Positions 879 to 59,603 of a stretch of 64,000 nucleotides of DNA are shown piece by piece. Each line of letters starts with the position of its first letter. The stretch's first letter is position 1. The translations under genes were made by a program, and so were the position numbers. The stretch is from Flavobacteriales bacterium (GTDB lineage Bacteria > Bacteroidota > Bacteroidia > Flavobacteriales_F > PHOS-HE28), in the NCBI GenBank assembly GCA_016713875.1, contig JADJOI010000003.1:3576069-3640068 (forward strand), read 5' to 3'. The notes below the pieces were generated by a model that saw nothing but the letters and a program-made list of their open reading frames with translations, ran no database searches and had not been told where the DNA came from.

Positions 879-1246
879 CCATCCCAGAGAAGGTCCATAT
901 CAAGAGCGCCAAATACGTGGGCGACTACCGCATCGCGTTCCGCTTCACGGATGGTCATACCACCGAGGTCGATTTCCACGCCTTCCTTACGGCACCAGGC
1001 CAGAACCCCATGGCCACACAGTTCCTGGATGTGACCCGGTTCAAGGGCTTTCACATCGAACAACGTGCGGACATCGTCTGGGGTGATTGGGAGATGTGTT
1101 TCCCATTGGCTGCTTTGTATGTTGGTGATCTTGGCGTGGATTCCCTCGGAAAGAAGCGGGGGGCACGCGTTGGCACCGGCCCACGCCGCTCGATAGGCCG
1201 TCGCAGTGGAGTGAGGAGGAAGACCACAAAAGCTGCGGTGAAATGA
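875..1246 (+). CDS. DUF2442 domain protein (partner of DUF4160)
   Basis: IKSAKYVGDYRIAFRFTDGHTTEVDF pattern. Conserved DUF4160-DUF2442 gene pair with ATGA overlap. The C-terminal extent is uncertain. Confidence 0.6.
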   Translation: MTIPEKVHIKSAKYVGDYRIAFRFTDGHTTEVDFHAFLTAPGQNPMATQFLDVTRFKGFHIEQRADIVWGDWEMCFPLAALYVGDLGVDSLGKKRGARVGTGPRRSIGRRSGVRRKTTKAAVK

Positions 1247-1287
1247 GTGAGAGCGGGTCTTCCAACAACACGCTGGGAACCACGATC

Positions 1288-1335
1288 ACCTGGCACCCGA
1301 TCGAGCGGGGGCAGGGAGGGGGTGGCGGATATTGA
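1288..1335 (+). repeat. 48-bp direct repeat, copy 2 (orphan ALDH 3' end including stop)
   Basis: Encodes ...TWHPIERGQGGGGGY* again, without an upstream gene body. Confidence 0.85.
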
Positions 1336-1339
1336 GCAC

Positions 1340-1675
1340 ATGGAGCTCCTTGGTTGGTCCGACTTCGAGAAGGTCCATCTGTGCGTGGGCACCGTGCTTT
1401 CCGCGGAGGGCCTGCCCAATGCGCGCAGGCCGGCCTACGTCCTCACCATCGACTTCGGACCGCACGGGGTGAAGCGCAGTAGCGCGCAGATCACGGTACA
1501 CTACACCAAGGACGAACTGGTGGGACGACAAGTGGTGGCGGTGATCAACTTCCCGCCCAAGCAGGTCGGCAGCGTGATGAGCGAATGCCTGATCACTGGA
1601 TTTCCAGATGCGAACGGCGATATCGTGCTCACCGCCGTGGAGCGGCCGCTGCCGAACGGGGCCCGGTTGGCGTGA
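1340..1675 (+). CDS. tRNA-binding protein (CsaA/EMAP-like)
   Basis: MELLGWSDFEKVHLCVGTVLSAEGLPNARRPAYVLTIDFGP...RQVVAVINFPPKQVGSVMSECLITGF matches the CsaA/tRNA-binding OB fold. Confidence 0.75.
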   Translation: MELLGWSDFEKVHLCVGTVLSAEGLPNARRPAYVLTIDFGPHGVKRSSAQITVHYTKDELVGRQVVAVINFPPKQVGSVMSECLITGFPDANGDIVLTAVERPLPNGARLA

Positions 1676-1740
1676 GCCATCGAACTTCCTCCATGGCATG
1701 GCCGTTGAACGGTTCGCGGGCCTTCCCGCGCGGACGACCC

Positions 1741-3066
1741 ATGCGCCCCTTCCTCACCCCGACGCTCCTGCTGTTGACCCTGGCCGTTGAGGCGCAAGTA
1801 CCGGCCAACGGGCGCCGCATCGGCTACCTGATGAACACGGCGGAGGATGGGAACACGGGAGCGGCGCTCGGGCTGGCGGAGGCGGCCTGTGTGGAAGGCG
1901 CGCACAAGACCCTCCTGTGGTCGGCCGTTCAGCCCGCCATCGGTACCTGGGATGCGGGGGAGCTGATGGCCCTGGACCTGCTGAACCTGCAGTCCGCGGT
2001 GCAGAGCGTGCCCCGTTCGCTGCAGATCGCCGTCACCAATACGGCCCGGAACGAGGTCCCGGTCGAGTTGAACGCCTATCCCTATGATCATCCGGCCATG
2101 GTGGCGGCCTTCACGGTCTATCTCGATACGCTCTTCGCCCACATCCCCGACATGCCCTTGGTGTACCTGAACATCGGCATGGAGAGCGACATCATGTGGG
2201 GAGGGGACGCCCTGCAGTACCAGCGCTTCGGGAACTTCCTGGCGCAGGTGGTCCCCCATGCGAAGCAGCGCTACCAGGCCTTGCACGGCACGGACCTGAG
2301 CGTGGGCACCACCATGACCTGGGCGGGCCTCACCAATCCGGTGAGCGCCGCGTTGTGCCAGGGGTTGAACGCCGGGCTGGACCACATCAGCCTCACCTAC
2401 TACGGGGTCGTCTTCGGCTTCACGGTGAAGCCGCCGGGCCAGGTGATCGCCGACCTGGATGCGCTGATGGCGCTCTACCCCGGGAACAAACCGGTGGTGG
2501 TGCAGGAGTGCGGATACCCCACCAGTGTGTTCAACGCCAGCAGCGAAGCGCTGCAGAGCCAGTTCGTCAGCGCGATGTTCACCGCGTGGGACCACCACTG
2601 GAGCCGGATCCCCTACCTGTCGGTGAGCATGCTGACGGATGTGGACAGCACCGCGGCGGTGGAGCTGGCGACCTACTATGGTCTGACGACCACGCCCTAT
2701 GTGGAGTTCCATCGCACGCTTGGCCTGCGTAGCTGGCCCGGCAGTGGTGCCCTGAAGCCGGCGTACGAGACCCTGCTGTGCGAGCTGCGCGACCGCGGCT
2801 TCTGCGCCACCACCTGCACGGCCTCGGTGCCGGACGGGACGGACGTGGCGGAGCCCGACTACCAGCTGGTGGTGGACCCGATCGCGGGCACGGTGCGCGT
2901 CATCACGGCACCAGGGCCTTCGCGGCCCGTTCGGGTGCATGCGGCGGATGGCCGCGTGGTGGCGAGAGGCCGGACGGGAGAGTCCGTCGCGCTCGGGGCC
3001 GGGGCGATGGGCGTGCTGTTGCTGGAGGTGGAGGGGCTTGGTGTGCGGCGGTTCGTGCTGAACTGA
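1741..3066 (+). CDS. secreted TIM-barrel glycosidase-like protein with T9SS C-terminal sorting domain
   Basis: Signal peptide MRPFLTPTLLLLTLAVEAQ. C-terminus ...RVHAADGRVVARGRTGESVALGAGAMGVLLLEVEGLGVRRFVLN is a Por/T9SS CTD pattern. The family call is tentative. Confidence 0.55.
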   Translation: MRPFLTPTLLLLTLAVEAQVPANGRRIGYLMNTAEDGNTGAALGLAEAACVEGAHKTLLWSAVQPAIGTWDAGELMALDLLNLQSAVQSVPRSLQIAVTNTARNEVPVELNAYPYDHPAMVAAFTVYLDTLFAHIPDMPLVYLNIGMESDIMWGGDALQYQRFGNFLAQVVPHAKQRYQALHGTDLSVGTTMTWAGLTNPVSAALCQGLNAGLDHISLTYYGVVFGFTVKPPGQVIADLDALMALYPGNKPVVVQECGYPTSVFNASSEALQSQFVSAMFTAWDHHWSRIPYLSVSMLTDVDSTAAVELATYYGLTTTPYVEFHRTLGLRSWPGSGALKPAYETLLCELRDRGFCATTCTASVPDGTDVAEPDYQLVVDPIAGTVRVITAPGPSRPVRVHAADGRVVARGRTGESVALGAGAMGVLLLEVEGLGVRRFVLN

Positions 3067-5681: not shown

Positions 5682-5987
5682 ATGGCCTCCCGCCACCGAT
5701 TGAACCTGCTGATCGCCTGCACGCTGCTGCTGGCGCTCCAGTTCATCCTTCCCCCTGCCACGCGGGCCGGGCATGGAGCGCCGATGACGGAGCTGAGCCT
5801 CCCCGTGGCGGAGGATGTCTTCGGCGACTCCGACCCGGGCGAAGCCTTCGGATCCTCATCCCCCCTGTTCCTGGCGCTCCTGCTGGGGCAGCGGTCGGAC
5901 GGAACCACGGGACCGCGGCTGAGCGACGCGGACAGGCCGGGCTACGCGATGATGCCGGTCACGGGCCTGCAGCCGTCGGCGCCCTGA
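5682..5987 (+). CDS. hypothetical small secreted protein
   Basis: Only a signal-peptide-like N-terminus (MASRHRLNLLIACTLLLAL). No family recognised. Confidence 0.2.
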   Translation: MASRHRLNLLIACTLLLALQFILPPATRAGHGAPMTELSLPVAEDVFGDSDPGEAFGSSSPLFLALLLGQRSDGTTGPRLSDADRPGYAMMPVTGLQPSAP

Positions 5988-6232
5988 TCCTCTTGTTCTC
6001 CCGGCCAAGAGCCGGGCATGGTGCCTAGCAAGAGGCAGAGCACCATGGAGCACGCTGTGCGGCCCTCTGTGCCCGGCGCTGCATCGGCCCATCGGAGCAC
6101 GCCCTTGGGGCTGCCCCTCCTGTTCATCGATCACGATCCTCCCACACCATGTTCCATGTCGTCGGCCCATCGGCCCATCCCATCGTTCTTCCGCTGGTCC
6201 AAGGGCTGCTGTCCGCATGCCCTCCCCGGGCG

Positions 6233-35311: not shown

Positions 35312-38300
35312 CTAAGCGGGAACGACCAGCACTGCTCCCAGCACTTCTTTGGCCTCGTGCAAGGTCTTGGTGTCTTGAACACTTACCCTCAACGTACCGG
35401 CCTTTTCATACACTTTGAATTTCCCGGGTTGAGCCTGTACTGCTCTGAGCACCGCATTGAACCCATCCCCCTCGAAGAAGGGATGCTTCTGATCCGCAAT
35501 GAAGGTGCCGATGAGCGTGCCCTTCTTCAGCACCATCTTCGCCAGGCCCATGCGTTGGCCCAGCCAGCGGAGGCGGATGCCTTCCAGCAGTTCGTTCACC
35601 AGTTGCGGGATCGGACCGAAGCGATCGGTGACCTCCGTGGTGAACTTCTGCAGTTCCGCTTCGTCCTTGATGTCGTCCAGTCGGCGGTAGAGCGCGAGGC
35701 GTTCGGCGGTCTCGCTCACGTAGCTGTTGGGGATCAGCATCGTCAGGTCGGTCTCGATGATGCAGTCGTCGCTCTGGTCGCGACGTGATCCGCGGGCCAG
35801 CGCGTGGCTGCCTTCCTGCGCGTCGTCGAAGAGGTCCTTGAAGTGCTGGTCCTTCAGTTCGCGCACGGCCTCTTCGAGGATCTTGTGGTAGGTCTCGAAG
35901 CCGATGTCGTTGATGAAGCCGCTCTGCTCCGCGCCGAGCAGGTCGCCCGCGCCGCGGATGTCGAGGTCCTTCATGGCGATGTGGATGCCGCTGCCCAGGT
36001 CGCTGAACTGCTCGATCGCTTGCAGACGCTTGCGTGAGAGGTCAGGCAGCAAATGTGGACTTGGGGCCAGCAGGTAGCAGTACGCCTTCTTGTTGCTGCG
36101 GCCCACACGTCCGCGCAGTTGGTGCAGATCGCTAAGGCCAAAGTTCTGCGCTTCGTTCACGATGATGGTGTTGGCGTTCGGGATGTCGAGGCCGTTCTCC
36201 ACGATGGTCGTACACACGAGCACGTCGGTGTTGCCCTCGATGAAGTCGAGCATCACCTCTTCCAGCTTGTGCCCTTCCAGTTGACCGTGCCCCACGCCCA
36301 CACGCGCGCCGGGCACCAGCTTGCGGATCATGTCGGCGATGAACTCGATGTTCTTCACCTTGTCGTGCAGGAAGTACACCTGGCCGCCGCGTGAGAGTTC
36401 GTACTCGATCGCGCCACGGATCGTCACCTCATCGTACGGCTGCAACATCGTGGCCACCGGATAACGGTTCGGCGGCGGCGTGCTGATGATGCTGAGGTCG
36501 CGCGCGCCCATGAGACTGAACTGCAACGTGCGCGGGATGGGCGTGGCAGTGAGGGTGAGCGTGTCCACCGTGGCGCGCAGGGTCTTCAGCTTGTCCTTCA
36601 CGTTCACGCCGAACTTCTGCTCCTCGTCGATGATCAGCAGGCCGAGGTCCTTGTACACCACGTCCTTGCTCACCAATCGGTGCGTGCCGATGAGGATGTC
36701 GATCTTCCCTTCCTTCAGGTCTTTCAGGATCTGCGTTTGCTGCGCCGAAGAGCGGAAGCGGTTGATGTAGTCCACGCGCACGGGCAGGCCCTTCATGCGC
36801 GCCGAGAAGCTCTTCCAGTGTTGCAGCGCGAGGATGGTTGTTGGCACCAGCACCGCCGCCTGCTTGCCGTCGCACACCGCTTTGAACGCGGCGCGTATGG
36901 CAACTTCTGTCTTGCCGAAGCCCACATCGCCGCAGACCAGTCGATCCATGGGCACGCCCTTCTCCATATCGCGCTTCACGTCCTGCGTGGCCTTCAACTG
37001 GTCGGGCGTGTCCTCGTAGATGAAGCTCGCCTCCAACTCGTGCTGCAGGTAGTTGTCCGGCTGGAACGCGAAGCCCGGCTTGCTCTTGCGCTGGGCGTAG
37101 AGCTTGATCAGGTCGAAGGCCAGTGCCTTCACTTTCGCCTTGGTCTTTTCCTTCAGGTTCTTCCACGCGGGTGAACCGAGCTTGCTCACAGGCGGCGCAT
37201 TGCCACCTTCTTCACCGCTGTACTTGCTCACGCGGTGCAGGCTGTGGATGCCCACGTAGAGGATGTCGTTGTCGCGGTACTTCAGGCGGATCGCTTCCTG
37301 CATGCTTCCGCCGGCATCGATCGTTTCCAGTCCGCTGAACACACCAACGCCGTGATCGATGTGTACCACGAGGTCGCCGGGCTTCAGTTGCGTCAGCTCC
37401 TTCAGGGTGAGCGCCTGCGAGTTCTTACGGAAGCCCTCCTTCAGCCGGTAGCGGTGGTAACGCTCGAAGATCTGGTGGTCGGTGTAGAGCGCCAGCTTCA
37501 GCTCGGGATCGATGAAGCCCTCGTGCAGGTCGAGCACCAGCGGCGTGAAGGCCACCTCGTGCTCCATGTCGTTGAAGATGGTGTACAGCCGTTCGCTCTG
37601 CTTCGCGCTGTTGCACGCGATGAGATTCGTGTAGCCCGCGTTCTGCTTGTTGTGCAGGTCGCCGCTGAGCACCTTGAACTCCTTGGCGAACGTCGGTTGA
37701 GGCCGTTGCTGGAAGTCCACCACCACTTGCGCCTTACTGTCTTGCGTCGCGTTCCCGTCGCGTCGTTGCGCCGCTGCGGTTACTGCCTTCTCTGTGTCCT
37801 CTGCGTCTCGGTGGTGAATGGATCGCCCCCAGAACACCTTCCTGAACCCCAACGTCCCCTTGATCAACTCACCGTCCGTCGCCAGCAGCTCGTTCGGCGT
37901 GGGATGTTTCTCCTTCTCGGAAAGTCGCTCGTACGCTTCGCCCAGCAACTTCAACTGCTTTGTTGCCGCATCGCCGATGGCTTGCAGATCGCGGAGCCAG
38001 ATCACTGCATCCTCGGGTAGTTGCGCGAAGAAGTTCTGCTGGCGCGCGGTGTCCTCGTCCTGGAGGTCGGGCACGATCACCGCTTCGGCGAGGAACTCCA
38101 CGGTCAATTGGTCCTGCGGATCAAAGCGGCGCACGCTTTCCACGGTGTCGCCGTACAGCTCGATGCGGTAAGGCTTGTCGCTGCCGTAGCTGAACACGTC
38201 CACGATGCCGCCGCGGATGCTGAACTGCCCCGGCTCGTACACGAACTCCACGCGACTGAAGCCGGTCTCGTCCAACCACTCTTGCAGCGTGTCGATCGGC

Positions 38301-38860
38301 AGCTCCTCGTGACGCTTCACGGTGAGCGTGTTGCTCATCATCTCCTCCTGGCCCATCACGAGCGGCACCAGTGCTTCGGGGTAGGTGACGATGATGAGCT
38401 TGTTGGTGATCGGTGAATGGGAGTTGGTGAATGGGGAATGCGCATTCGCACCATTCGCCATTCGCCATTCGATATTCACCCTCATCAACGCTTCCAACAC
38501 TTCCGTCCTTGTGACGCGTTCACCGTCGTGGTGGCCTTCCGGATCGTACGGCGATCGCGAGGGTGCGGGATAGAAGAGCATGTCTTCATCCTTCTTCGCA
38601 TGACGGCCATCCTTGTCCTTGCCACGTAGCGCTTCCAGGTCGTTGATGAAGTAGGCCGCTTCTTCCTTGTCGGTGAGCACGAACACATGCACGCCGCCGC
38701 GCTGCTCGATGACCGACGCGGCGATCAGCGCTTGCGCCGAACCGATGGTGCCCGCGATCTGCACGCGCGCGGAATCTGGTTGCAGGCCTTCGGCGATGCG
38801 CGCGACGCGTGGGTCGTTGCGGTAGAGGGTGAGTAGGTCGGGGAGGGAGGTCAAAGGCAT
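35312..38860 (-). CDS. mfd: transcription-repair coupling factor
   Basis: 1182 aa, intact. UvrB-interaction region, DEAD/DEAH helicase motifs (GDVGFGKTEVA, LIIDEEQKFG), TRCF domain. Confidence 0.95.
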   Translation of the reverse strand: MPLTSLPDLLTLYRNDPRVARIAEGLQPDSARVQIAGTIGSAQALIAASVIEQRGGVHVFVLTDKEEAAYFINDLEALRGKDKDGRHAKKDEDMLFYPAPSRSPYDPEGHHDGERVTRTEVLEALMRVNIEWRMANGANAHSPFTNSHSPITNKLIIVTYPEALVPLVMGQEEMMSNTLTVKRHEELPIDTLQEWLDETGFSRVEFVYEPGQFSIRGGIVDVFSYGSDKPYRIELYGDTVESVRRFDPQDQLTVEFLAEAVIVPDLQDEDTARQQNFFAQLPEDAVIWLRDLQAIGDAATKQLKLLGEAYERLSEKEKHPTPNELLATDGELIKGTLGFRKVFWGRSIHHRDAEDTEKAVTAAAQRRDGNATQDSKAQVVVDFQQRPQPTFAKEFKVLSGDLHNKQNAGYTNLIACNSAKQSERLYTIFNDMEHEVAFTPLVLDLHEGFIDPELKLALYTDHQIFERYHRYRLKEGFRKNSQALTLKELTQLKPGDLVVHIDHGVGVFSGLETIDAGGSMQEAIRLKYRDNDILYVGIHSLHRVSKYSGEEGGNAPPVSKLGSPAWKNLKEKTKAKVKALAFDLIKLYAQRKSKPGFAFQPDNYLQHELEASFIYEDTPDQLKATQDVKRDMEKGVPMDRLVCGDVGFGKTEVAIRAAFKAVCDGKQAAVLVPTTILALQHWKSFSARMKGLPVRVDYINRFRSSAQQTQILKDLKEGKIDILIGTHRLVSKDVVYKDLGLLIIDEEQKFGVNVKDKLKTLRATVDTLTLTATPIPRTLQFSLMGARDLSIISTPPPNRYPVATMLQPYDEVTIRGAIEYELSRGGQVYFLHDKVKNIEFIADMIRKLVPGARVGVGHGQLEGHKLEEVMLDFIEGNTDVLVCTTIVENGLDIPNANTIIVNEAQNFGLSDLHQLRGRVGRSNKKAYCYLLAPSPHLLPDLSRKRLQAIEQFSDLGSGIHIAMKDLDIRGAGDLLGAEQSGFINDIGFETYHKILEEAVRELKDQHFKDLFDDAQEGSHALARGSRRDQSDDCIIETDLTMLIPNSYVSETAERLALYRRLDDIKDEAELQKFTTEVTDRFGPIPQLVNELLEGIRLRWLGQRMGLAKMVLKKGTLIGTFIADQKHPFFEGDGFNAVLRAVQAQPGKFKVYEKAGTLRVSVQDTKTLHEAKEVLGAVLVVPA

Positions 38861-43313: not shown

Positions 43314-44210
43314 TCACTCGCCCTCCTCCAGGATCCGCAGCACGCGGTCGGGGAAGTCGCTGATGATGCCGTCCACCCCGAGGGCGGTCATCCTGCGGAG
43401 GTCGGCCTCCTCGTTCACGGTCCACACCACCACCTCGATGTTGCGTTCCTGCAGCGACCGCACGGCAGCGGCGTCCACCAGCCCGAACTGGGGGCTGTAC
43501 ACCTCCGGGACATAGCTCAGCCGCGCAAGCTCCGTGTCGGGGTCGGTGCCGGACTCCACCAGCAAGGCGGTGCGCAGGCCCGGGTCCTGGGCGTGCACGG
43601 CCTCCAGCACGGCGGGGTCGAAGCTCTGCACCAGGCAGTTGGCGCCGAGCTGCAGGTCGGTGAGGGTGCGCAGCACGGCGGCGGCCAGGGTGTCCGGTGC
43701 GGGTTGGTAGGTGCCGTACCAGGCCGGGTCGCTCTTGATCTCGATGTTGTAGGAGACGGGCCCCACGCCTTCGGTGAGCGTGAGCTCCTCGATGGCGGCC
43801 ACCACCTCGGCCAGCGTCGGCTTGATGGCGCGGCGGTTGTCCTGGTCGGGGAAGTCCGGATGCGTGAGCGAACCGCAGTCGCAGCGCTGGGCTTCCGCAA
43901 GGGTCATGCGATGGATGTTGAGGGCCAGTCCCTGATCCTCGGTGAGCGGAGCGCCGTCGGGACCGGTGCAGATGCGGTGGTCCATCCAGGGCTCGTGGCT
44001 CACGAGCACGTGCCCGTCGGCCGTGAGCACCACGTCCAGCTCGAGCCAGGTGCAGCCCAGGCGGGCGGCGCGTTGGAAGGCGGCGATGGTGTTCTCGGGC
44101 TCCAGGCCCCGGCAGCCGCGGTGGCCGTGCACTTCGGGTGGTTCTGGAGCGGAGGTCATGCAGGCGGACAGCAGGAGGGTGAGCGCGGGCAGGGCCCTAG
44201 GGTTGGGCAT
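43314..44210 (-). CDS. glycerophosphodiester phosphodiesterase family lipoprotein
   Basis: HGHRGCRGLEPENTIAAFQRAARLGCTWLELDVVLTADGHVLVSHE (GDPD catalytic motif). Confidence 0.8.
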   Translation of the reverse strand: MPNPRALPALTLLLSACMTSAPEPPEVHGHRGCRGLEPENTIAAFQRAARLGCTWLELDVVLTADGHVLVSHEPWMDHRICTGPDGAPLTEDQGLALNIHRMTLAEAQRCDCGSLTHPDFPDQDNRRAIKPTLAEVVAAIEELTLTEGVGPVSYNIEIKSDPAWYGTYQPAPDTLAAAVLRTLTDLQLGANCLVQSFDPAVLEAVHAQDPGLRTALLVESGTDPDTELARLSYVPEVYSPQFGLVDAAAVRSLQERNIEVVVWTVNEEADLRRMTALGVDGIISDFPDRVLRILEEGE

Positions 44211-45132
44211 GGGGGAAGCGGGTGAGGATCTTGTCGGCGAGCACGGCGGCCATCTTGAAGCGGCCTTCGTGGGTGACCCCGGCGATGTGAGGGGTGAGGA
44301 TCACGCGGTCGTGGCGCAGCAGGTGCTCGAGCACCGACGCCTCGGGGCCGGGGTCGAGGCCGGAGAGGTCGGCGCGCTCGAACTCGAGCACGTCGAGGCC
44401 GGCGGCGAGGACCCGGCCGCTGTCCAGCGCATCCAGGAGAGCGGCGGTGTGCAGCACGGGCCCTCGGCTGGTGTTCACCAGGCGGATGGGGCGCGCGAAA
44501 CCCGCGAGGAACGAGGCGTTCGCGTAGTGGTGCGTTTCCGCGGTCAGCGGAAGGTGCAGGCTCACGATGTCGCTCTCGCGATGCAGGGTGGCCAGGTCGC
44601 ACTCCTCGACATGCGGAGGGGTGTGGCCATCGCGGTACTTGTCGTGGCCCAGCACGCGCACCCCGAAGCCCTGCAGGCGATCGGCGAAGGCGAGGCCCAT
44701 GTGGCCCAGGCCGATGATGCCCACCGTGAGGCCGTGGAGGTCGGTGCCGCGGTTCTCCTCGCGGCGCCACTGGCCGGTGTGCACCTGGCGGTCCGCACGG
44801 GGCAGATGCTTCAGCAGCGCCAGCACCAGCAGCAGGGTGTGCTCGGCGACGCCATCGCGATTGCCTTCGGGCGAGTTGATCACCTCCACGCCGCGTGCGG
44901 CGCAGACGGCCGTGTCGATGTTCTCCAGGCCGGAGCCCACACGGGCCACGAAACGCAGGGCGGGGACGCGGTCCAGCACGTCCCGGCCCACGCTCTTGCT
45001 GCGCACCACCAGGCCGGCGCACCGCTCCAGGTCCGCGGCCTCGGGATGGTCGTGCGCGATGCAGGTGTGGCCGGCGGCGGTGAGCCGCTCGGCGAGCACG
45101 GGATGGACCTCGTCCAGGAAGTGGACCCGCAT
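44197..45132 (-). CDS. D-isomer-specific 2-hydroxyacid dehydrogenase (PGDH-like)
   Basis: GIIGLGHMGLAFADRL NAD motif, RGPV...LDV, HIAGVT. Confidence 0.75.
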   Translation of the reverse strand: MRVHFLDEVHPVLAERLTAAGHTCIAHDHPEAADLERCAGLVVRSKSVGRDVLDRVPALRFVARVGSGLENIDTAVCAARGVEVINSPEGNRDGVAEHTLLLVLALLKHLPRADRQVHTGQWRREENRGTDLHGLTVGIIGLGHMGLAFADRLQGFGVRVLGHDKYRDGHTPPHVEECDLATLHRESDIVSLHLPLTAETHHYANASFLAGFARPIRLVNTSRGPVLHTAALLDALDSGRVLAAGLDVLEFERADLSGLDPGPEASVLEHLLRHDRVILTPHIAGVTHEGRFKMAAVLADKILTRFPHAQP

Positions 45133-53527: not shown

Positions 53528-54052
53528 TCACTTCTTGCTGTCCTTCTTGGGGGCGGCTTTCTTGGCCGGGGCCTTCTTGGCGGGCGCCGCCTTCTTGGCC
53601 GGAGCGGCCTTCTTGGCGGGGGCGGCCTTCTTGGCTGCGGCCTTGGTCGCCTTGGGGGCGGCCTCCTTCTTCGCCGGGGCCTCGGCCTTCACGGCCTTGG
53701 GGGCGGGGGCGGTGCTCTTGCTGGCGTCGAACTTCTCGCCTTTGCCGAGGATGGCCTCGATCCACAGTTCGGTGATGGCCTGGCGGTGGCCGTTCATCTT
53801 CTGGTAGCCCTTGCGGCGCTTCTTCTTGAACACCAGCACGGTGTCGCCCTTGCTGTGCGCGAGCACCTTGGCGGCCACACGGGCGCCCTCCACGGTGGGG
53901 GTGCCCACGCTGACGGTGGAGCCATTGCTCACCAGCAGCACCTGGTCCAGTTCCACGTGCTTGCCGGCCTCGGCTTCGAGGCGGTGCACCTTCAGCTTCT
54001 GGCCGCCCTGCACCTTGTATTGCTGGCCGAGGATGTTGACGATGGCGTACAT
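53528..54052 (-). CDS. rplU: 50S ribosomal protein L21 with Lys/Ala-rich C-terminal extension
   Basis: MYAIVNILGQQYKV... L21 core (~105 aa) followed by ~70 aa of APAKKAAPAKKAAPAKK encoded by 15-bp tandem repeats. Confidence 0.85.
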   Translation of the reverse strand: MYAIVNILGQQYKVQGGQKLKVHRLEAEAGKHVELDQVLLVSNGSTVSVGTPTVEGARVAAKVLAHSKGDTVLVFKKKRRKGYQKMNGHRQAITELWIEAILGKGEKFDASKSTAPAPKAVKAEAPAKKEAAPKATKAAAKKAAPAKKAAPAKKAAPAKKAPAKKAAPKKDSKK

Positions 54053-54149: not shown

Positions 54150-54215
54150 GTGGCGAGTAGGGAGTGGCGAGTGGCGAGTGGCGAGTAGCGAGTAGGGAGT
54201 GGTGAGGGATGCGGC
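54150..54215 (+). repeat. 21-bp GC-rich tandem repeat (short downstream block)
   Basis: gtggcgagtagggagtggcgagtggcgagtggcgagtagcgagtagggagtgg. Confidence 0.8.
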
Positions 54216-54216
54216 C

Positions 54217-54636
54217 TCAACGGAGAAAGTAGGGGGTGGAGAGGTTGAACCAGAGTCCAAGCAGGGCCATCGCACCTGGGATATTGCGCCAGCCGGTGGT
54301 CTTGGTCTTGATGTAGGTCCGCAGGAGCCGGGCAGTCTGGTCCTGTAGGGCCATCATGCGGTCGATCTGATCCGGCGGGAAGTACTTCCTGCGGCGGGCA
54401 AGATGGAGCATGGAGCAAACTTCATTGCAGGAGCCCTTGGCGATCCAGAGGTAGCGGAGCTGATGGGCCTTCGTAGGCATTTCGTGGCCTTCTGCGATGT
54501 TGTTGCAGATGGACAGGGATGCACGGAATAACTGGTCCCTGAAGCCCCAGTTCTTGTTCTCGGATAGCGCGATGTCCACGGCCTCGTTCAAGTCCATGGC
54601 CCGCTGCCAGGCGATCGACTCTTCAAAGCTCTTCAT
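54217..54636 (-). CDS. four-helix-bundle protein (PF05635 / TIGR02436; Avd-like, formerly '23S rRNA intervening-sequence protein')
   Basis: MKSFEESIAWQRAMDLNEAVDIALSENKNWGFRDQLFRASLSICNNIAEG...AKGSCNEVCSMLHLARR matches the TIGR02436 pattern. Confidence 0.7.
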   Translation of the reverse strand: MKSFEESIAWQRAMDLNEAVDIALSENKNWGFRDQLFRASLSICNNIAEGHEMPTKAHQLRYLWIAKGSCNEVCSMLHLARRRKYFPPDQIDRMMALQDQTARLLRTYIKTKTTGWRNIPGAMALLGLWFNLSTPYFLR

Positions 54637-54639
54637 GGG

Positions 54640-55360
54640 TGGGTGGGGATGGGTCGGGTTACGAGTAGCGAGTACCGAGTGGCGAGTAGCGAGTAGCGAG
54701 TACCGAGTGGCGAGTAGTGAGTACCGAGTGGCGAGTAGTGAGTACCGAGTGGCGAGTAGTGAGTACCGAGTGGCGAGTAGTGAGTACCGAGTGGCGAGTA
54801 GCGAGTAGCGAGTGGCGAGTAGTGAGTACCGAGTGGCGAGTAGTGAGTACCGAGTGGCGAGTAGTGAGTACCGAGTGGCGAGTAGTGAGTACCGAGTGGC
54901 GAGTAGTGAGTACCGAGTGGCGAGTAGCGAGTACCGGTGGCGAGTAGTGAGTGCCGAGTGGCGAGTAGTGAGTACCGAGTGGCGAGAAGCGAGTACCGAG
55001 TGGCGAGTAGTGAGTAGCGAGTGGCGAGTAGTGAGTACCGAGTGGCGAGTAGTGAGTACCGAGTGGCGAGTAGTGAGTACCGAGTGGCGAGTAGTGAGTA
55101 CCGAGTGGCGAGTAGTGAGTACCGAGTGGCGAGTAGCGAGTACCGAGTGGCGAGTAGTGAGTACCGAGTGGCGAGTAGTGAGTACCGGTGGCGAGTAGCG
55201 AGTACCGAGTGGCGAGTAGTGAGTACCGAGTGGCGAGTAGTGAGTACCGAGTGGCGAGTAGTGAGTACCGAGTGGCGAGTAGCGAGTACCGAGTGGCGAG
55301 TAGTGAGTACCGAGTGGCGAGTAGCGAGTACCGAGTGGCGAGTACCGAGTGGGTTGCTGG
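54640..55360 (+). repeat. 21-bp tandem satellite, ~34 copies (unit tggcgagtagtgagtaccgag with gcg/gtg variants)
   Basis: Perfectly phased 21-bp periodicity over ~720 bp. The track ORFs (TRYSLLATRYSLL.., SSEYRVASSEYRV..) are translations of the repeat. Confidence 0.9.
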
Positions 55361-55404
55361 ATGCACCTCAACGCCAAGGTAAAGGGCCTCCTTGAAATGC
55401 GATC

Positions 55405-55445
55405 GCGAGTGACGATGGCGGACTCGCCACGCGTCACTCGCGACT
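55405..55445 (-). terminator. stem-loop downstream of metK (11-bp perfect inverted repeat cgcgagtgacg…cgtcactcgcg)
   Basis: Located ~25 bp after the metK stop on the minus strand. The loop contains ggactcgccac, related to the GTGGCGAGT repeat core. Confidence 0.5.
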
Positions 55446-55466
55446 CGATACTTGGGTCAGGGAAGC

Positions 55467-56726
55467 TTACAGCTTGAACGCCTTTTTCACCGCGGCCACG
55501 GCATTGAGCTCCTCCCAGGGGAACAGCTTCACCTTCACGGTGGCTTTCTGACCGGCGTTGCTGAAGGTCTTGGTCACCTCCTTGCACTCGCGGCCCATGT
55601 GCCCGTAAGCGGCGGTCTCGCTGTAGATGGGGGTGCGGAGCTTGAAGCGCTGCTCGATGAAGTACGGGCGCATGTCGAACTCCTTCAGGCCGCCCACCAC
55701 CTGGGCGATCCGGCCGTCGCTCATCTTCACCTTGCTGGTGCCGTAGGTGTTCACGTAGAAGCCCACGGGCCTGGCCACGCCGATGGCGTAGGCCACCTGC
55801 ACCAGGCATTCGTCGCACACGCCGGCCGCCACCAGGTGCTTGGCCACGTGGCGCGCCGCGTAGGCCGCGCTGCGATCCACCTTGCTGGGGTCCTTGCCGC
55901 TGAAGGCACCGCCGCCGTGCGCGCCCTTGCCGCCGTAGGTGTCCACGATGATCTTGCGGCCGGTGAGGCCGGTGTCGCCGTGCGGGCCGCCGATCACGAA
56001 CTTGCCGGTGGGGTTGATGTGGTAGGCGATGTCCTTGCCGAAGAGGGCCTGCACCCGCTTGGGCAGCTTCTTCATTACGCGGGGGATCAGCACCTCGATC
56101 ACGTCCTTCTTGATGCGCGCCAGCATCTTCGCCTCGCTGTCGAAGTCGTCATGCTGGGTGCTCACCACGATGGCGTCGATGCGCTTGGGCGTGTGGTCGT
56201 CGTTGTACTCGATGGTCACCTGGCTCTTGGCGTCGGGGCGCAGGTAGGGCATCTTGCTGTTCTTCTCACGGCGGATGGCGGCGAGCTCGCGGAGCAGCAG
56301 GTGGCTGAGCTCGAGCGGCAGCGGCATGAACGTATCTGTGTCGCGGCAGGCGTAGCCGAACATCATGCCCTGGTCGCCGGCGCCCTGTTCCTCGGGCTTC
56401 TTGCGCTCCACGCCCTGGTTGATGTCGGGGCTCTGCTCGTGGATGGCGCTCAGCACACCGCAGCTGTGCGCCTCGAACATGTACTCGCTCTTGGTGTAAC
56501 CGATACGCTCGATCACCTCGCGGGCGATCTGCTGCACATCGAGGTAGGCGTTGCTCTTCACCTCGCCGGCCAGCACCACCTGTCCGGTGGTCACCAGGGT
56601 TTCGCAGGCCACCTTGCTCTGCGGGTCGAACGCGAGGAAGTGGTCGATGAGGGCATCGCTGATCTGGTCGGCGACCTTGTCGGGGTGGCCTTCGCTGACG
56701 GATTCGGAGGTGAAGAGGTAGGGCAT
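55467..56726 (-). CDS. metK: methionine adenosyltransferase
   Basis: [25 protein letters not shown]..., [19 protein letters not shown]. Confidence 0.95.
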
Positions 56727-58580: not shown

Positions 58581-59603
58581 ATGCCCACCGGCCTTGTGAT
58601 GCGCTCCACCGGCAGCCGCTACCTGGTGCGTGGCGACGACGGCACGCTGCACGAGTGCGTGGCCAAGGGCAACCTGCGGATCAAGGGGTGGAAGAGCACG
58701 AACCCGGTGGCGGTGGGCGATCGGGTGGACTTCAGCCCGCAGGAGGATGCGGACCACCCGGGCGCCATCACCGACCTGCACGACCGGCGCAACTACCTGG
58801 TGCGGCGCAGCGTGAACCTGAGCCACCACAAGCATGTGATCGCCGCCAATCTGGACCAGGCGCTGCTGATCGTGACGGTGGCGCGCCCGCGCACCTCCAC
58901 GGGCTTCATCGACCGCTTCCTGGTGACCGCCGAGGCTTACCAGGTGCCGGTGGTGCTGGTGGTGAACAAGGTGGACGACCTGGCCGACGACGAGATGGAG
59001 GACCTGGCGGAGCTGGTGGACACCTACCAGCAGGCGGGCTATCGGGTGCTGATGACCTCGGCGCGGACCGGGGCCGGGGTGGACGATGTGCGGGAGCTGC
59101 TCGCCGGCCGGGTGACCTTGGTGGCCGGGCACAGCGGGGTGGGGAAGAGCACCCTCATCAACAGCATCGATCCGGCGCTCGACCTGCACACCGCCGTCAT
59201 CAGCGAGGCCAGTGAGAAGGGCCAGCACACCACCACCTACGCCGAGATGTTCGAGCTGGGAGTGGCGAGTGATGAATTGCGAGTGGCGAGTGATCAGCCG
59301 GCTGACACTCGCCGCTCGTCACTCGCCACTCAGGCCGTGATCCCACCGACCTTCATCATCGACACCCCCGGCATCAAGGGCTTCGGGCTGGTGGACCTGG
59401 AGGCCGAGGACATCGGCGATCAGTTCCCCGAGATCTTCCGGTTGAAGGGCGGTTGCCGCTTCAACAACTGCCTGCACAAGGACGAACCCGGCTGTGCGGT
59501 GCGCGCCGCGGTGGAGGCTGGAGAGCTGGCCGGAAGCCGCTACAGCAGCTACCGCGACATGCTCGAGGGCATCGATGAGGAGAGTCCTTACCGACTGGAT
59601 TGA
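58581..59603 (+). CDS. rsgA: ribosome small-subunit-dependent GTPase A, carrying a 26-aa in-frame palindromic insertion
   Basis: OB domain; G motifs (VVNKVD, GHSGVGKSTLIN, DTPG); C-terminal zinc-finger CLHKDEPGC. Insertion GVASDELRVASDQPADTRRSSLATQAV lies between HTTT and IIDTPG. Confidence 0.85.
   Translation: MPTGLVMRSTGSRYLVRGDDGTLHECVAKGNLRIKGWKSTNPVAVGDRVDFSPQEDADHPGAITDLHDRRNYLVRRSVNLSHHKHVIAANLDQALLIVTVARPRTSTGFIDRFLVTAEAYQVPVVLVVNKVDDLADDEMEDLAELVDTYQQAGYRVLMTSARTGAGVDDVRELLAGRVTLVAGHSGVGKSTLINSIDPALDLHTAVISEASEKGQHTTTYAEMFELGVASDELRVASDQPADTRRSSLATQAVIPPTFIIDTPGIKGFGLVDLEAEDIGDQFPEIFRLKGGCRFNNCLHKDEPGCAVRAAVEAGELAGSRYSSYRDMLEGIDEESPYRLD
59259..59332 (+). repeat. 74-bp imperfect palindromic (MITE/REP-like) element inside rsgA
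   Basis: gagtggcgagtgatgaattgcgagtggcgagtgatcagc | gctgacactcgccgctcgtcactcgccactc. The arms are reverse complements. Core GTGGCGAGT is shared with the 21-bp satellite. Confidence 0.8.

What the first reader, a model, noticed from the sequence alone, without database searches (positions are those of the whole stretch)
59259..59332. In-frame 74-bp palindromic element inserted into the essential GTPase gene rsgA
RsgA normally has ~5 residues between the HTTT segment and the (I/L)IDTPG G-motif. Here there are 32 residues, and the extra 26 (GVASDELRVASDQPADTRRSSLATQAV) are encoded by an imperfect hairpin (gagtggcgagtga...tcactcgccactc arms) carrying the same core as the 21-bp satellite. The reading frame is preserved and downstream motifs are intact, so the gene probably remains functional with a tolerated surface-loop insertion. 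It is an example of a REP/MITE-like element being absorbed into a core protein.
Basis: partly seen in the sequence, partly recalled or inferred. Interest (0 to 1): 0.7.

Follow-up and report, generated by a model that had tools for sequence, protein, structure and literature searches.

The report
Heptamer-repeat hairpin inserted in-frame in rsgA
A 72-base DNA hairpin built from 7-base repeats sits in-frame in a surface loop of the ribosome-assembly GTPase RsgA, and it belongs to a widespread, little-described class of repeat hairpins that repeatedly land in tolerant loops of housekeeping proteins and also enclose the enigmatic "23S rRNA intervening-sequence protein" genes.

Summary
Window 59260-59331 is a strong hairpin (DNA -34.7, RNA -59.5 kcal/mol, z about -7), the strongest local fold outlier in the 64 kb. 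It lies in-frame in rsgA and adds about 26 residues between the G2 (HTTT) and G3 (DTPG) strands.

The arms are inverted arrays of heptamers (GAGTGGC/GAGTGAT). The same unit forms the 683-bp satellite 4 kb upstream. The gene is under strong purifying selection (dN/dS 0.03-0.12), and AlphaFold places the insert in a disordered loop at a beta-hairpin tip.

It is not a canonical REP or MITE: no target-site duplication, no fixed ends, no transposase seen. It belongs to a broad class of heptamer-array hairpins.
- A second in-frame copy lies in mfd (38405-38478), where many orthologs have an empty site.
- This RsgA loop, the Mfd loop and two MoeA loops in Chloroflexota are hot spots filled by hairpins with lineage-specific units.
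- At least 12 of 120 pattern-selected metagenome contigs carry such hairpins in-frame in Pfam-confirmed genes.
- All 21 examined PF05635 (23S rRNA intervening-sequence protein) genes, including the one in this window, sit inside a flanking inverted repeat, mostly of heptamer units.

This suggests, but does not show, that gene-less hairpins are miniature relatives of IVS-type selfish elements.

The parts
58581..59603 (+). rsgA coding sequence (340 aa) that hosts the insert
   Evidence: ORF listing. Pfam RsgA_GTPase 1.2e-49 and RsgA_N 7.5e-10. Start codon agrees with the consensus of 52 homologs. dN/dS 0.03-0.12.
59259..59332 (+). In-frame hairpin insert encoding about GVASDELRVASDQPADTRRSSLATQ, at the tip of the beta hairpin between G2 (HTTT) and G3 (DTPG)
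   Evidence: fold statistics. (32 residues against 5-6 in solved RsgA structures). (pLDDT below 50 for residues 230-252).
59260..59294 (+). 5' arm: five heptamer units, GAGTGGC GAGTGAT GAATTGC GAGTGGC GAGTGAT
   Evidence: Sequence. TRF period 7 at 59260-59292. Direct repeat at 21-nt spacing.
59295..59305 (+). Hairpin loop CAGCCGGCTGA, itself a small palindrome
59306..59331 (+). 3' arm: inverted heptamer units, CACTCGC CGCTCGT CACTCGC CACTC
   Evidence: TRF period 7 at 59306-59331. Inverted repeats I1-I5.
35312..38860 (-). mfd (transcription-repair coupling factor, 1182 aa), host of a second in-frame hairpin
   Evidence: Translation. Matches to solved Mfd structures. Homologs are named transcription-repair coupling factor.
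38405..38478 (-). Second in-frame heptamer hairpin (units GAATGGC / CCATTCG) encoding NIEWRMANGANAHSPFTNSHSPITN in Mfd. In 47 of 119 orthologs the loop at this site is 6 residues or shorter (empty forms such as ALMKKPEHLIIVTY).
   Evidence: DNA fold -25.1 kcal/mol, z -4.6. Second-strongest fold outlier in the window. Ortholog loop table and counts. Empty against filled DNA alignment.
54217..54636 (-). PF05635 (23S rRNA intervening-sequence protein, four-helix-bundle) gene enclosed by heptamer arrays of the same unit as the rsgA insert. Possible full-length relative of the gene-less hairpins.
   Evidence: Pfam 23S_rRNA_IVP 1.4e-23. It is the only such gene in the window. Flanking arrays.
54150..54206 (+). 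Heptamer array (GTGGCGA, about 8 copies) flanking the PF05635 gene
54662..55344 (+). 21-bp satellite made of three heptamers (CGAGTGG CGAGTAG TGAGTAC), 32.6 copies, same orientation as the rsgA 5' arm
   Evidence: TRF score 1226. Sequence.
55422..55455 (+). Inverted heptamer units that pair with the end of the satellite (34-nt arms, 79% complementary, 78 nt apart). A small hairpin lies at 55400-55450.
   Evidence: Inverted repeats I1 and I2. Fold outlier z -4.9 at 55391-55480.

Best explanation
The segment is a gene-less copy of a heptamer-array hairpin element. Its 5' arm is a run of purine-rich 7-nt units (GAGTGRY type), followed by a short loop and a 3' arm of the complementary units. Such hairpins are abundant in this Flavobacteriales lineage and in other phyla.

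Shown:
- The copy occupies the tip of the beta hairpin between the G2 and G3 motifs of RsgA.
- It is read through in one of its open frames and is predicted to be a disordered loop.
- The host gene stays under strong purifying selection, so the insert is tolerated.
- The same loop in related genomes carries hairpins with the same or quite different heptamer units, short remnants, or nothing. The history of the insert is decoupled from that of the gene.
- The same behaviour is seen in Mfd in this window, where the short, empty-looking loop is the commonest state, and in MoeA of Chloroflexota.

Inferred:
- Copies arrive by copy-and-paste from other arrays. The route would be replication template switching, ectopic conversion, or an unknown mobilisation activity, with loss of a few native loop codons.
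- Only stop-free, in-frame copies at permissive surface loops survive selection. That would explain why the same loops are hit repeatedly.
- Once in place, a copy changes by unit slippage (only steps of 21 nt keep the frame), loop inversion and decay.

More speculative:
- The gene-less hairpins are miniature relatives of the hairpins that enclose PF05635 (S23p/IVP) genes. These are the elements known as 23S rRNA intervening sequences when they sit in rRNA helices.
For: Anatomy and tolerance:
-.

The loop is a hot spot whose history is decoupled from the gene:
- Loop length varies from 25 to 85 residues across 120 homologs. 35 of 119 have loops of at least 18 aa and 65 of 119 have at most 10 aa.
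- The DNA of the long loops folds as heptamer hairpins with different units: GAGTGGC, GGTTGAG, GAGCCAC, ACGAACA.
- Carriers of the GAGTGGC type are not monophyletic.
- L007 is 97% identical in protein to L011/L012 outside the loop (200 of 200 bootstraps as nearest neighbour). It carries a 90-nt loop with a GAGTGGC-type hairpin where they have 18 nt.
- L003 and L001 flanks are 78-79% identical while the inserts are 92% identical. WIN and L004 flanks are 91-94% identical while the inserts are 68% identical.
- Synonymous divergence next to the insert is 0.25 for L001-L003, against an insert divergence of 0.08 (7 of 90 positions).
- The loop of L004 is the exact reverse complement of the L009 loop.
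- P0004 has three extra 21-nt units.

Second copy in the window:
- mfd hairpin.
- In 47 of 119 orthologs the loop at this site is at most 6 residues, including four at 89% identity with KRPDR, KKPER or KRPER.
- Other lineages are filled with other 7-aa-periodic peptides.

Generality:
- A 19-nt arm signature hit at least 120 metagenome contigs with GC 0.36-0.72.
- At least 12 lie in-frame in Pfam-confirmed genes: MoeA, P-type ATPase, RibA/RibD, DnaX, PolA, RmlD, an aminotransferase, a CCG-domain protein, an RlmI-like methyltransferase, a RecA-like protein and an S8 peptidase.
- MoeA of Chloroflexota has two hot-spot loops with lineage-specific units. In two cases both sites of one gene carry the same subtype (P0121 VTSDE, P0138 ITNYELRITNEE). 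Site 1 of P0121 differs from its relatives at 86-89% identity.
- The Flavobacteriales rsgA inserts and the Chloroflexota inserts align over about 80 nt with one shared architecture.
- Polarity is fixed: the purine-rich arm is always 5' (26 to 0).

Link to PF05635 genes:
- 9 of 9 PF05635 genes in the fetched loci lie between heptamer arrays, inverted in the clear cases.
- 12 of 12 plasmid-borne PF05635 genes from Cyanobacteriota, Bacteroidota, Gemmatimonadota and Pseudomonadota lie between inverted repeats that beat all 200 shuffles. Most are built of heptamer units.
- One of these is a copy inside a 23S rRNA gene (L209).
- Tandem heptamers in the Coxiella IVS are described in PMC4990558.
Against: - No insertion event was caught with clean junctions. 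In both rsgA and mfd the native loop is replaced, not simply interrupted.
- There are no target-site duplications and no conserved flanking motif.
- No transposase or RAYT was identified.
- The short loops of L011/L012 (GTGGAGGGTGGCGAAGGG) resemble 2.5 decayed units in the same register. Part of the pattern could therefore be one old insertion with many decays.
- The shared arrangement GAGTGAY-GARTTRC-GAGTGRC is partly forced by the need to avoid in-frame TGA. It is weaker evidence of common origin than it first looks.
- Only three heptamer loci occur in this 64 kb, and the genome-wide copy number is unknown.
- The metagenome set was selected by pattern, so the 10% intragenic figure is not an unbiased rate.
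- Only 2 of 120 pattern-selected contigs have a PF05635 gene nearby.
- PF05635 has no known activity. PMC4990558 reports evidence that S23p is not even made in Coxiella.
Confidence: 0.62

Rival explanations
1. The hairpin grew in place. A heptanucleotide simple-sequence repeat arose by polymerase slippage in a permissive loop of an ancestral rsgA. It acquired an inverted copy by fold-back template switching and has persisted since. Its units are homogenised within the array and between the arms, so no copy ever moved between loci.
For: - Heptamers are the most over-represented class of long SSR in bacteria and are attributed to slippage (Mrazek 2007, as cited in PMC4679880, and in PMC4692102).
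- Unit-number variation is seen (P0004).
- All GAGTGGC-type rsgA inserts are in the same codon register.
- The short loops of L011/L012 and the family-wide KVEG...PTF look like decayed arms. GAAGGT and ACCTTC are complementary.
- The junctions show replacement of the loop rather than a clean insertion.
Against: - For Mfd the short form KKPEH/KRPER is the commonest state. The fills differ completely between lineages, which points to repeated independent gains.
- Site 1 of MoeA in P0121 and P0138 was replaced by exactly the subtype present at site 2 of the same gene.
- The L001 and L003 inserts are 92% identical while neighbouring synonymous sites differ by 25%.
- The same unit family and architecture occur in two phyla.
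- The strict 5'-purine-arm polarity (26 to 0) is not predicted by random fold-back.
Confidence: 0.2
2. It is a classical non-autonomous transposable element (a MITE, or a REP/REPIN moved by a RAYT or other IS200/IS605-type transposase) that transposed into rsgA.
For: - It has a palindromic structure, is dispersed, and has related copies.
- REPs and Rickettsia palindromic elements are known to sit in-frame in genes (PMC3733652; PMC10969869).
- Elements moved as single strands leave no target-site duplication.
- Units of the Chloroflexota type contain CGTC.
Against: - No target-site duplication, no fixed termini, and a variable number of units per arm.
- No conserved GTAG or CGTC head in the window's copies (GAGTGGC gives CGCC).
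- No transposase gene was noticed near any copy.
- The only gene found enclosed by such arrays is PF05635, which is not a known transposase.
Confidence: 0.1
3. The hairpin or its peptide is functional and is kept by selection. Examples: an RNase III or other processing site that tunes rsgA expression, a translational pause site, or a loop that modulates binding to the 30S subunit.
For: - The RNA hairpin is very stable (-59.5 kcal/mol).
- Hairpins are retained in five rsgA lineages, and inserts are more conserved than nearby synonymous sites in some pairs.
- IVS stems of the same kind are RNase III substrates (PMC4990558).
Against: - There is no covariation in the stem (covariation term +2.0, 1 of 19 pairs compensatory).
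- More than half of the listed orthologs (65 of 119) have short loops of 10 residues or fewer, and some inserts have decayed, having lost the hairpin (L005, L006, L017; z -0.5 to +0.5).
- Peptide sequences differ completely between lineages.
- The same elements sit in many unrelated proteins.
- The insert is predicted to be disordered.
Confidence: 0.07

Closest known systems
Rickettsia palindromic elements (RPEs; Ogata et al. 2000, summarised in PMC10969869)
   Same: They are palindromic repeats found in-frame inside unrelated housekeeping genes, at positions compatible with fold and function. The host genes stay functional, and no dedicated transposase is known.
   Different: RPEs are about 100-150 bp, belong to defined sequence families and are restricted to Rickettsia. 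They are not built from tandem heptamers. No sequence similarity was seen here. The present elements vary in unit number and unit sequence, and they occur in Bacteroidota and Chloroflexota.
REP / REPIN elements (GTAG- and CGTC-tagged palindromes; PMC3733652, PMC3116915)
   Same: They are short hairpin-forming repeats, present in many copies, and sometimes found inside ORFs of known proteins. CGTC-type REPs also lack an associated transposase.
   Different: REPs have a fixed stem of 8-13 bp with a conserved tetranucleotide head, and they pair into dimers. GTAG REPs are tied to RAYT genes. Here the stems are arrays of 3-5 or more heptamer units, there is no conserved head, and no RAYT was seen.
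Heptameric simple-sequence repeats: cyanobacterial STRR, GGGAATC arrays of Xanthomonas and Nostoc (PMC4692102), TAACTGA repeats (PMC4679880)
   Same: They are tandem 7-nt units with variable copy number and are abundant in particular lineages. In Xanthomonas, 70-75 pairs of arrays lie in convergent (inverted) orientation and can form stem-loops.
   Different: Those repeats are described as intergenic and under-represented in coding regions. In-frame occupation of conserved protein loops, hot-spot recurrence, and a link to PF05635 genes are not described in the papers read.
23S rRNA intervening sequences carrying an S23p / PF05635 ORF (Coxiella, Leptospira and others; PMC4990558)
   Same: They are selfish hairpin elements inserted at exposed tips of an essential macromolecule. 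They have a long terminal stem, and tandem heptamers (GACAGAT, 2-3 copies, variable between strains) are noted in the Coxiella IVS. The window's PF05635 gene and 20 others examined are enclosed by such flanking repeats, including one copy inside an Azospirillum 23S rRNA gene.
   Different: The rsgA and mfd copies have no ORF, sit in protein-coding genes, and are translated rather than excised. Excision by RNase III is untested here.
MITEs in general
   Same: Their arms act like terminal inverted repeats, they are small and carry no coding capacity of their own. A larger relative with the same arms encloses a gene, which mirrors the relation of a MITE to its autonomous element.
   Different: There is no target-site duplication, no fixed length, and the enclosed gene is not a known transposase.

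Membership tests
RsgA (YjeQ/EngC) circularly permuted GTPase (the host gene) | RsgA_N OB domain, a GTPase domain with G1 (GxSGVGKS), G2 (HTTT) and G3 (DTPG), and a C-terminal zinc-finger motif | tested here: met
   Pfam RsgA_GTPase 1.2e-49 and RsgA_N 7.5e-10. The motifs GHSGVGKS, HTTT, IDTPG and CRFNNCLHKDEPGC are visible in the translation. Matches to 1U0L and 5NO2.
MITE | Terminal inverted repeats | tested here: met
   26-nt arms, 85% complementary.
MITE | Target-site duplication flanking the element | tested here: not met
   No direct repeat flanks the rsgA or mfd copies. Filled-against-empty alignments show replacement of the native loop codons. No common flank motif in 14 delimited elements.
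MITE | An autonomous partner with the same ends that encodes a transposase | tested here: inconclusive
   The only gene enclosed by arrays of the same unit is PF05635, whose function is unknown. The rest of the genome could not be searched.
REP / REPIN | Fixed short stem-loop with a conserved GTAG or CGTC head | tested here: not met
   The arms are variable runs of heptamers. The window's units give CGCC rather than CGTC, and there is no unpaired conserved head.
REP / REPIN | Associated RAYT (Y1 transposase) gene flanked by the repeats | not tested
   No transposase profile search of the window or genome was run. None was noticed among the ORFs inspected around the copies.
Rickettsia palindromic elements | In-frame insertion in unrelated ORFs at structurally permissive sites | tested here: met
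   rsgA, mfd, and at least 12 other Pfam-confirmed genes.
Rickettsia palindromic elements | Membership of one of the RPE sequence families of Rickettsia | not tested
   No RPE sequences were available for comparison. The host phylum and the heptamer construction are different.
Heptameric SSR / STRR-type repeats | Tandem 7-nt units with copy-number variation | tested here: met
   TRF period 7 in both arms. The 21-bp satellite is three heptamers. P0004 has three extra 21-nt units. Period 7 dominates the TRF output in related contigs (324 rows).
Heptameric SSR / STRR-type repeats | Intergenic location | tested here: not met
   This copy and the mfd copy are translated parts of conserved genes.
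23S rRNA IVS-type element | Long stem formed by terminal inverted repeats | tested here: met
   for the rsgA copy. for 21 of 21 PF05635 genes.
23S rRNA IVS-type element | PF05635 (S23p) ORF in the loop | tested here: not met
   The rsgA loop is 11 nt. The ORF-bearing form is present 4 kb upstream at 54217-54636.
23S rRNA IVS-type element | Located in helix 9, 25 or 45 of 23S rRNA and excised by RNase III | tested here: not met
   The location is a protein-coding gene. RNase III processing cannot be tested with these tools.

The most novel reading that the evidence does not exclude
Three things may be facets of one ancient, cross-phylum family of selfish hairpin elements: gene-less heptamer-array hairpins (including bacterial heptameric SSRs and STRRs), the PF05635/S23p genes of unknown function, and the 23S rRNA intervening sequences. 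The ORF-bearing form would be the full-length element. The roughly 70-90-nt hairpins would be its miniatures. They would colonise exposed tips of essential macromolecules, both rRNA helices and protein surface loops, by a transposase-independent copy-and-paste route. In doing so they would act as a general source of loop insertions in housekeeping proteins.
Probability: 0.3. Interest if true: 0.85.

Novelty: new variant of a known kind. Interest (0 to 1): 0.72.

Why it matters
In-frame palindromic "selfish DNA" in proteins is known from Rickettsia and from some REPs. Here the elements are arrays of heptamers, a repeat class whose abundance in bacteria has been noted for decades without an explanation.

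The data show several new points:
- Such hairpins repeatedly occupy the same permissive loops of core proteins (RsgA, Mfd, MoeA) in at least two phyla.
- Different lineages carry different units at the same site.
- The same kind of hairpin encloses every PF05635 gene examined, including a classical 23S rRNA intervening sequence.

Two old questions become directly testable: what PF05635/S23p proteins do, and where heptameric repeats and rRNA intervening sequences come from. The result also has practical consequences for annotation and phylogenetics. These inserts break domain models; the Pfam RsgA match stops at the insert. They also create homoplasious indels.

Tried and rejected
- **Rfam search of 53-61 kb:** only chance-level hits.
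- **Covariation in the stem across nine rsgA inserts:** none. The pairs are simply invariant, so there is no evidence for or against selection on structure.
- **Adjacency of PF05635 genes to pattern-selected hairpins:** only 2 of 120. I first took this as evidence against a link. The reverse conditional (arrays given a PF05635 gene) turned out to be 21 of 21.
- **Conserved flanking target motif or target-site duplication:** none found.
- **Viral contigs:** 3 hits in 2.9 million contigs. Nothing points to a phage vehicle.
- **Longest-spanning-ORF test for intragenic arrays in high-GC loci:** too noisy because of spurious ORFs. Replaced by Pfam confirmation.
- **Ungapped dN/dS across clades:** gave nonsense (pN about 0.4) because of indels ('all' column). 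Only within-clade values and values next to the insert are used.
- **Shared arrangement GAGTGAY-GARTTRC-GAGTGRC as proof of common origin:** weakened, because a TT unit is needed at that phase to avoid an in-frame TGA.
- **Loop of the rsgA hairpin against the 78-nt spacer at the satellite end:** no similarity, so there is no direct donor-copy evidence.
- **Literature searches:** nothing on the arm sequences or peptides. Nothing on S23p/four-helix-bundle genes together with heptamers in general.
- **Assembly artefact or pseudogene:** rejected (intact ORF, 6 contigs, purifying selection).
Full report
**1. The observation**

Window 59260-59331 is an imperfect palindrome with 26-nt arms that are 85% complementary. 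It lies inside the only long ORF of the region, 58581-59603. That ORF is RsgA by Pfam (RsgA_GTPase 1.2e-49, RsgA_N 7.5e-10), and the domain match ends at residue 227, exactly where the insert begins.

The fold is far beyond chance:
- As DNA it folds at -34.7 kcal/mol (z -7.2, 0 of 200 shuffles as stable).
- As RNA it folds at -59.5 kcal/mol (z -7.3).
- In a 90-nt sliding fold scan of all 64 kb, corrected for GC, it is the strongest outlier (z -6.4).

Both arms have a 7-nt period. They read GAGTGGC GAGTGAT GAATTGC GAGTGGC GAGTGAT, loop cagccggctga, then CACTCGC CGCTCGT CACTCGC CACTC.

The 13-mer GAGTGGCGAGTGA, with up to 2 mismatches, occurs 42 times in the window against 3.07 expected. Nearly all copies are in the arrays at 54150-55345. 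These include a 683-bp satellite whose 21-bp unit is three heptamers.

In T. maritima (1U0L) and E. coli (5NO2) RsgA, the blocks flanking the insert are 5-6 residues apart. Here they are 32 apart. The strict HTTT-to-IIDTPG spacing is normally 12-13 residues. From established knowledge, rsgA is important but not strictly essential.

**2. Position in the protein, and whether the gene works**

An AlphaFold model built on 52 homologs (pTM 0.76) shows two points:
- Strands 222-226 and 257-261 flank the insert.
- Residues 230-252 have pLDDT below 50.

The insert is thus a disordered excursion at the tip of the beta hairpin between switch I/G2 and G3.

Outside the insert, pairs of insert-carrying lineages give dN/dS of 0.03-0.12 at dS 0.2-0.5. 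The gene has therefore been functional with the insert for a long time. Whether the loop faces the 30S subunit was not tested.

**3. The same loop in relatives**

The organism is an uncultured Flavobacteriales bacterium with a 3.9-Mb contig. Across 120 homologs the segment ranges from 25 to 85 residues. Of 119 scored, 65 have loops of 10 aa or fewer and 35 have loops of 18 aa or more.

DNA from 80 genomes shows that the long loops are themselves hairpins of inverted heptamer arrays, with several unit types:
- GAGTGGC type: WIN, L001-L004, L007-L009, L077.
- GGTTGAG type: L014, and by peptide P0031, P0049 and P0104.
- GAGCCAC/ACGAGCC type: L016, L043.
- ACGAACA: L030.
- L005, L006 and L017 carry decayed versions that no longer fold.

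The carriers are not monophyletic on a loop-masked tree. The clearest case is L007. It is 97% identical in protein to L011/L012 outside the loop (nearest neighbour in 200 of 200 bootstraps). Yet it has a 90-nt loop carrying a GAGTGGC-type hairpin where they have 18 nt.

The history of the insert is decoupled from that of the gene:
- L003 and L001: flanks 78-79% identical, inserts 92% identical.
- WIN and L004: flanks 91-94% identical, inserts 68% identical.
- Synonymous divergence within about 40 codons of the insert is 0.25 for L001-L003, against an insert divergence of 0.08.

Within a site, the elements change in three ways:
- Gain or loss of 21-nt triplets of units (P0004).
- Loop inversion: the L004 loop GCTTCCGGACCGGCAGC is the exact reverse complement of the L009 loop.
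- Decay.

The stem shows no covariation. The pairs are simply invariant.

**4. A second in-frame copy in this window**

The second-strongest fold outlier, 38405-38478 (z -5.4; -25.1 kcal/mol, z -4.6), lies inside mfd (35312-38860, minus strand). Its units are GAATGGC/CCATTCG, one base away from GAGTGGC. It encodes NIEWRMANGANAHSPFTNSHSPITN.

Here the short, empty-looking loop is the commonest state. In 47 of 119 orthologs the loop at this site is 6 residues or shorter (forms such as ALMKKPEHLIIVTY or KRPER). These include proteins 89% identical to the window's (P0251, P0252, P0255, P0256).

The window's clade and several others carry quite different 7-aa-periodic fills:
- AGEWSVANGEWELANG...
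- AGMNGEKGENGEK...PLSPPSPFSP
- TLAPSHx repeats.

A DNA alignment of an empty allele (L205) with two filled alleles shows that four native codons are replaced and that there is no target-site duplication. This argues for repeated independent gains at a permissive loop.

**5. Generality**

Most hits are intergenic heptamer arrays or hairpins.

At least 12 lie in-frame inside Pfam-confirmed genes:
- MoeA (two sites)
- a P-type ATPase
- RibA/RibD
- DnaX
- PolA
- RmlD
- an aminotransferase
- a CCG-domain oxidoreductase
- an RlmI-like methyltransferase
- a RecA-like protein
- an S8 peptidase.

The MoeA contig is Chloroflexota (Ca. Promineifilum and relatives). Its orthologs repeat the pattern seen in RsgA. 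Two loops are hypervariable and are filled by hairpin-encoded peptides with lineage-specific units:
- VTSDELRVTS...LVTRHSSLVT
- ITNYELRITNEE
- MTNDELRMTNEE...FVIRHSSFVI
- GEQGSGGAGEKE...SPAPLLPRSPA
- LEIGDWRLET...QSPISNLQSP.

Some orthologs are nearly empty at these loops. In P0121 and P0138 both sites of one gene carry the same subtype. Site 1 of P0121 differs from relatives at 86-89% identity. This looks like copying between loci.

Further observations:
- Flavobacteriales rsgA inserts and Chloroflexota inserts align over about 80 nt with one architecture.
- The purine-rich arm is always 5' (26 to 0).
- Reading-frame logic explains the recurring peptides. GAGTGAC contains TGA, so a GAGTTRC unit is needed at every third position. 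The Chloroflexota element is open in 1 of 6 frames and the rsgA and mfd elements in 3 of 6.

**6. Link to PF05635 genes and rRNA intervening sequences**

The small gene between the arrays at 54217-54636 is a PF05635 "23S rRNA intervening-sequence protein" (1.4e-23).

Every PF05635 gene in the fetched loci (9 of 9) lies between heptamer arrays that are inverted in the clear cases, and the unit differs by taxon:
- GAGTGGC/CCACTCG in these MAGs.
- AATTGTG/AATTCAC in a Flavobacterium.
- AGTGACG/ACTCGTC in a metagenome contig.

As an independent test I located PF05635 homologs on plasmids by tblastn (18 records) and fetched 12. They come from Nostoc, Calothrix, Anabaena, Picosynechococcus, Geminocystis, Stanieria, Riemerella, Gemmatirosa and Azospirillum.
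- All 12 have flanking inverted repeats exceeding every one of 200 shuffles.
- Most are built from heptamers: GGGAAAA, ACAGGTG, GGGTGTA, AGGAGAT, AGGGAAC, GAGGACG. Gemmatirosa has an octamer.
- The weakest three exceed their shuffles only narrowly (scores 13-14 against 11-12).
- The Azospirillum copy lies inside a 23S rRNA gene, so it is a classical intervening sequence.

The Coxiella IVS paper notes strain-variable tandem heptamers, a 28-bp terminal stem, RNase III excision, and the old idea that the ORF might serve mobility (PMC4990558).

I found no paper that generalises this link or that mentions these arm sequences.

The inference that the gene-less hairpins are miniatures of ORF-bearing ones is a hypothesis. 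The reverse is also possible: PF05635 cassettes might home into existing hairpin loops.

**7. What it is, and what it is not**

It behaves like the Rickettsia palindromic elements and like intragenic REPs (PMC10969869; PMC3733652). In construction it resembles the inverted heptamer arrays described for Xanthomonas and Nostoc (PMC4692102).

It fails the MITE and REP membership tests:
- No target-site duplication.
- No fixed ends.
- No conserved head.
- No transposase seen.

My best account is a copy-and-paste hairpin element, filtered by selection to permissive loops and then remodelled in place (confidence about 0.6).
- The main rival is purely local growth of a heptamer repeat with many decays (about 0.2). 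It is supported by the common codon register and the remnant-like short loops. It is hard to reconcile with Mfd, with the concerted MoeA sites, and with the L001/L003 identity.
- A selected regulatory role is unlikely but not excluded.

**8. Limits**
- Only 64 kb of the genome was available, so the genome-wide copy number is unknown.
- The metagenome set was chosen by pattern.
- The trees are single-gene neighbour-joining trees.
- No junction of a fresh insertion was seen.
- No biochemical property of PF05635 is known.

Noticed in passing
window 38405-38478 (inside mfd, 35312-38860, minus strand): A second in-frame heptamer hairpin (units GAATGGC/CCATTCG) encodes NIEWRMANGANAHSPFTNSHSPITN in the transcription-repair coupling factor. 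In 47 of 119 orthologs the loop at this site is 6 residues or shorter (forms such as KKPEH).
   Followed up: yes
window 54150-55455: A PF05635 (23S rRNA intervening-sequence protein) gene lies between metK and rplU. It is enclosed by heptamer arrays, including a 683-bp satellite of 32.6 copies of a 21-bp unit. The arrangement is syntenic in L003, L007, L013, L038 and L047, even where rsgA has no insert.
   Followed up: yes
L207-L218 (plasmid loci), especially L210, L211 and L209: PF05635 genes with their flanking repeat hairpins are wedged into tight intergenic gaps inside CRISPR-cas operons of cyanobacterial plasmids (cas6 | IVP | cas4 and cas10 | IVP | cmr3). One copy sits inside an Azospirillum 23S rRNA gene.
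   Followed up: partly
L175 6252-6328 and 6929-7006; proteins P0121-P0240: MoeA of Chloroflexota (Ca. Promineifilum and relatives) has two hypervariable loops filled by heptamer hairpins. In P0121 and P0138 both sites of one gene carry the same subtype, which suggests copying between sites.
   Followed up: partly
L004 1757-1842 against L009 1385-1470: The hairpin loops are exact reverse complements of each other (GCTTCCGGACCGGCAGC and GCTGCCGGTCCGGAAGC). Either the loop flipped in place or the element entered in the opposite orientation.
   Followed up: partly
L059, L064-L067, L070, L073, L076, L078-L080 at about 5890-5995; L008 5790-5990; L027/L029 5829-5990: Heptamer arrays lie directly upstream of the rsgA start codon in many Flavobacteriales (AT-rich units such as AAATCTA and AAACTTT in Flavobacterium; GGTTGGG/CAACCCC in L008). 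This recalls the start-codon-proximal TAACTGA repeats of Beggiatoaceae.
   Followed up: no
L008 1084-1171: An intergenic hairpin of GGTTGRG/CAACCCT heptamers lies immediately next to the atpD stop codon (atpD runs 1176-2819, minus strand). Its position resembles that of a REP element or a terminator.
   Followed up: partly
window 53542-53644 (3' end of rplU, minus strand): Tandem 15/18-nt repeats encode a Lys/Ala/Pro-rich C-terminal tail (AKKAAPAKKAAPAKK...) on ribosomal protein L21. The tail is histone H1-like.
   Followed up: no
L219 (Anabaena sp. 90 pANA02) 43494-44999: All AGGTGAC-type heptamer arrays on 50 kb of this plasmid cluster within about 1.3 kb of its PF05635 gene. One array overlaps the annotated 5' end of cas4. 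The same plasmid also carries a DGR with an Avd gene, a relative of PF05635 proteins.
   Followed up: no
loci L082-L201: In contigs chosen only for one arm signature, period 7 is by far the commonest tandem-repeat period (324 TRF rows; the next is period 9 with 182). Each contig carries several unrelated heptamer units.
   Followed up: partly
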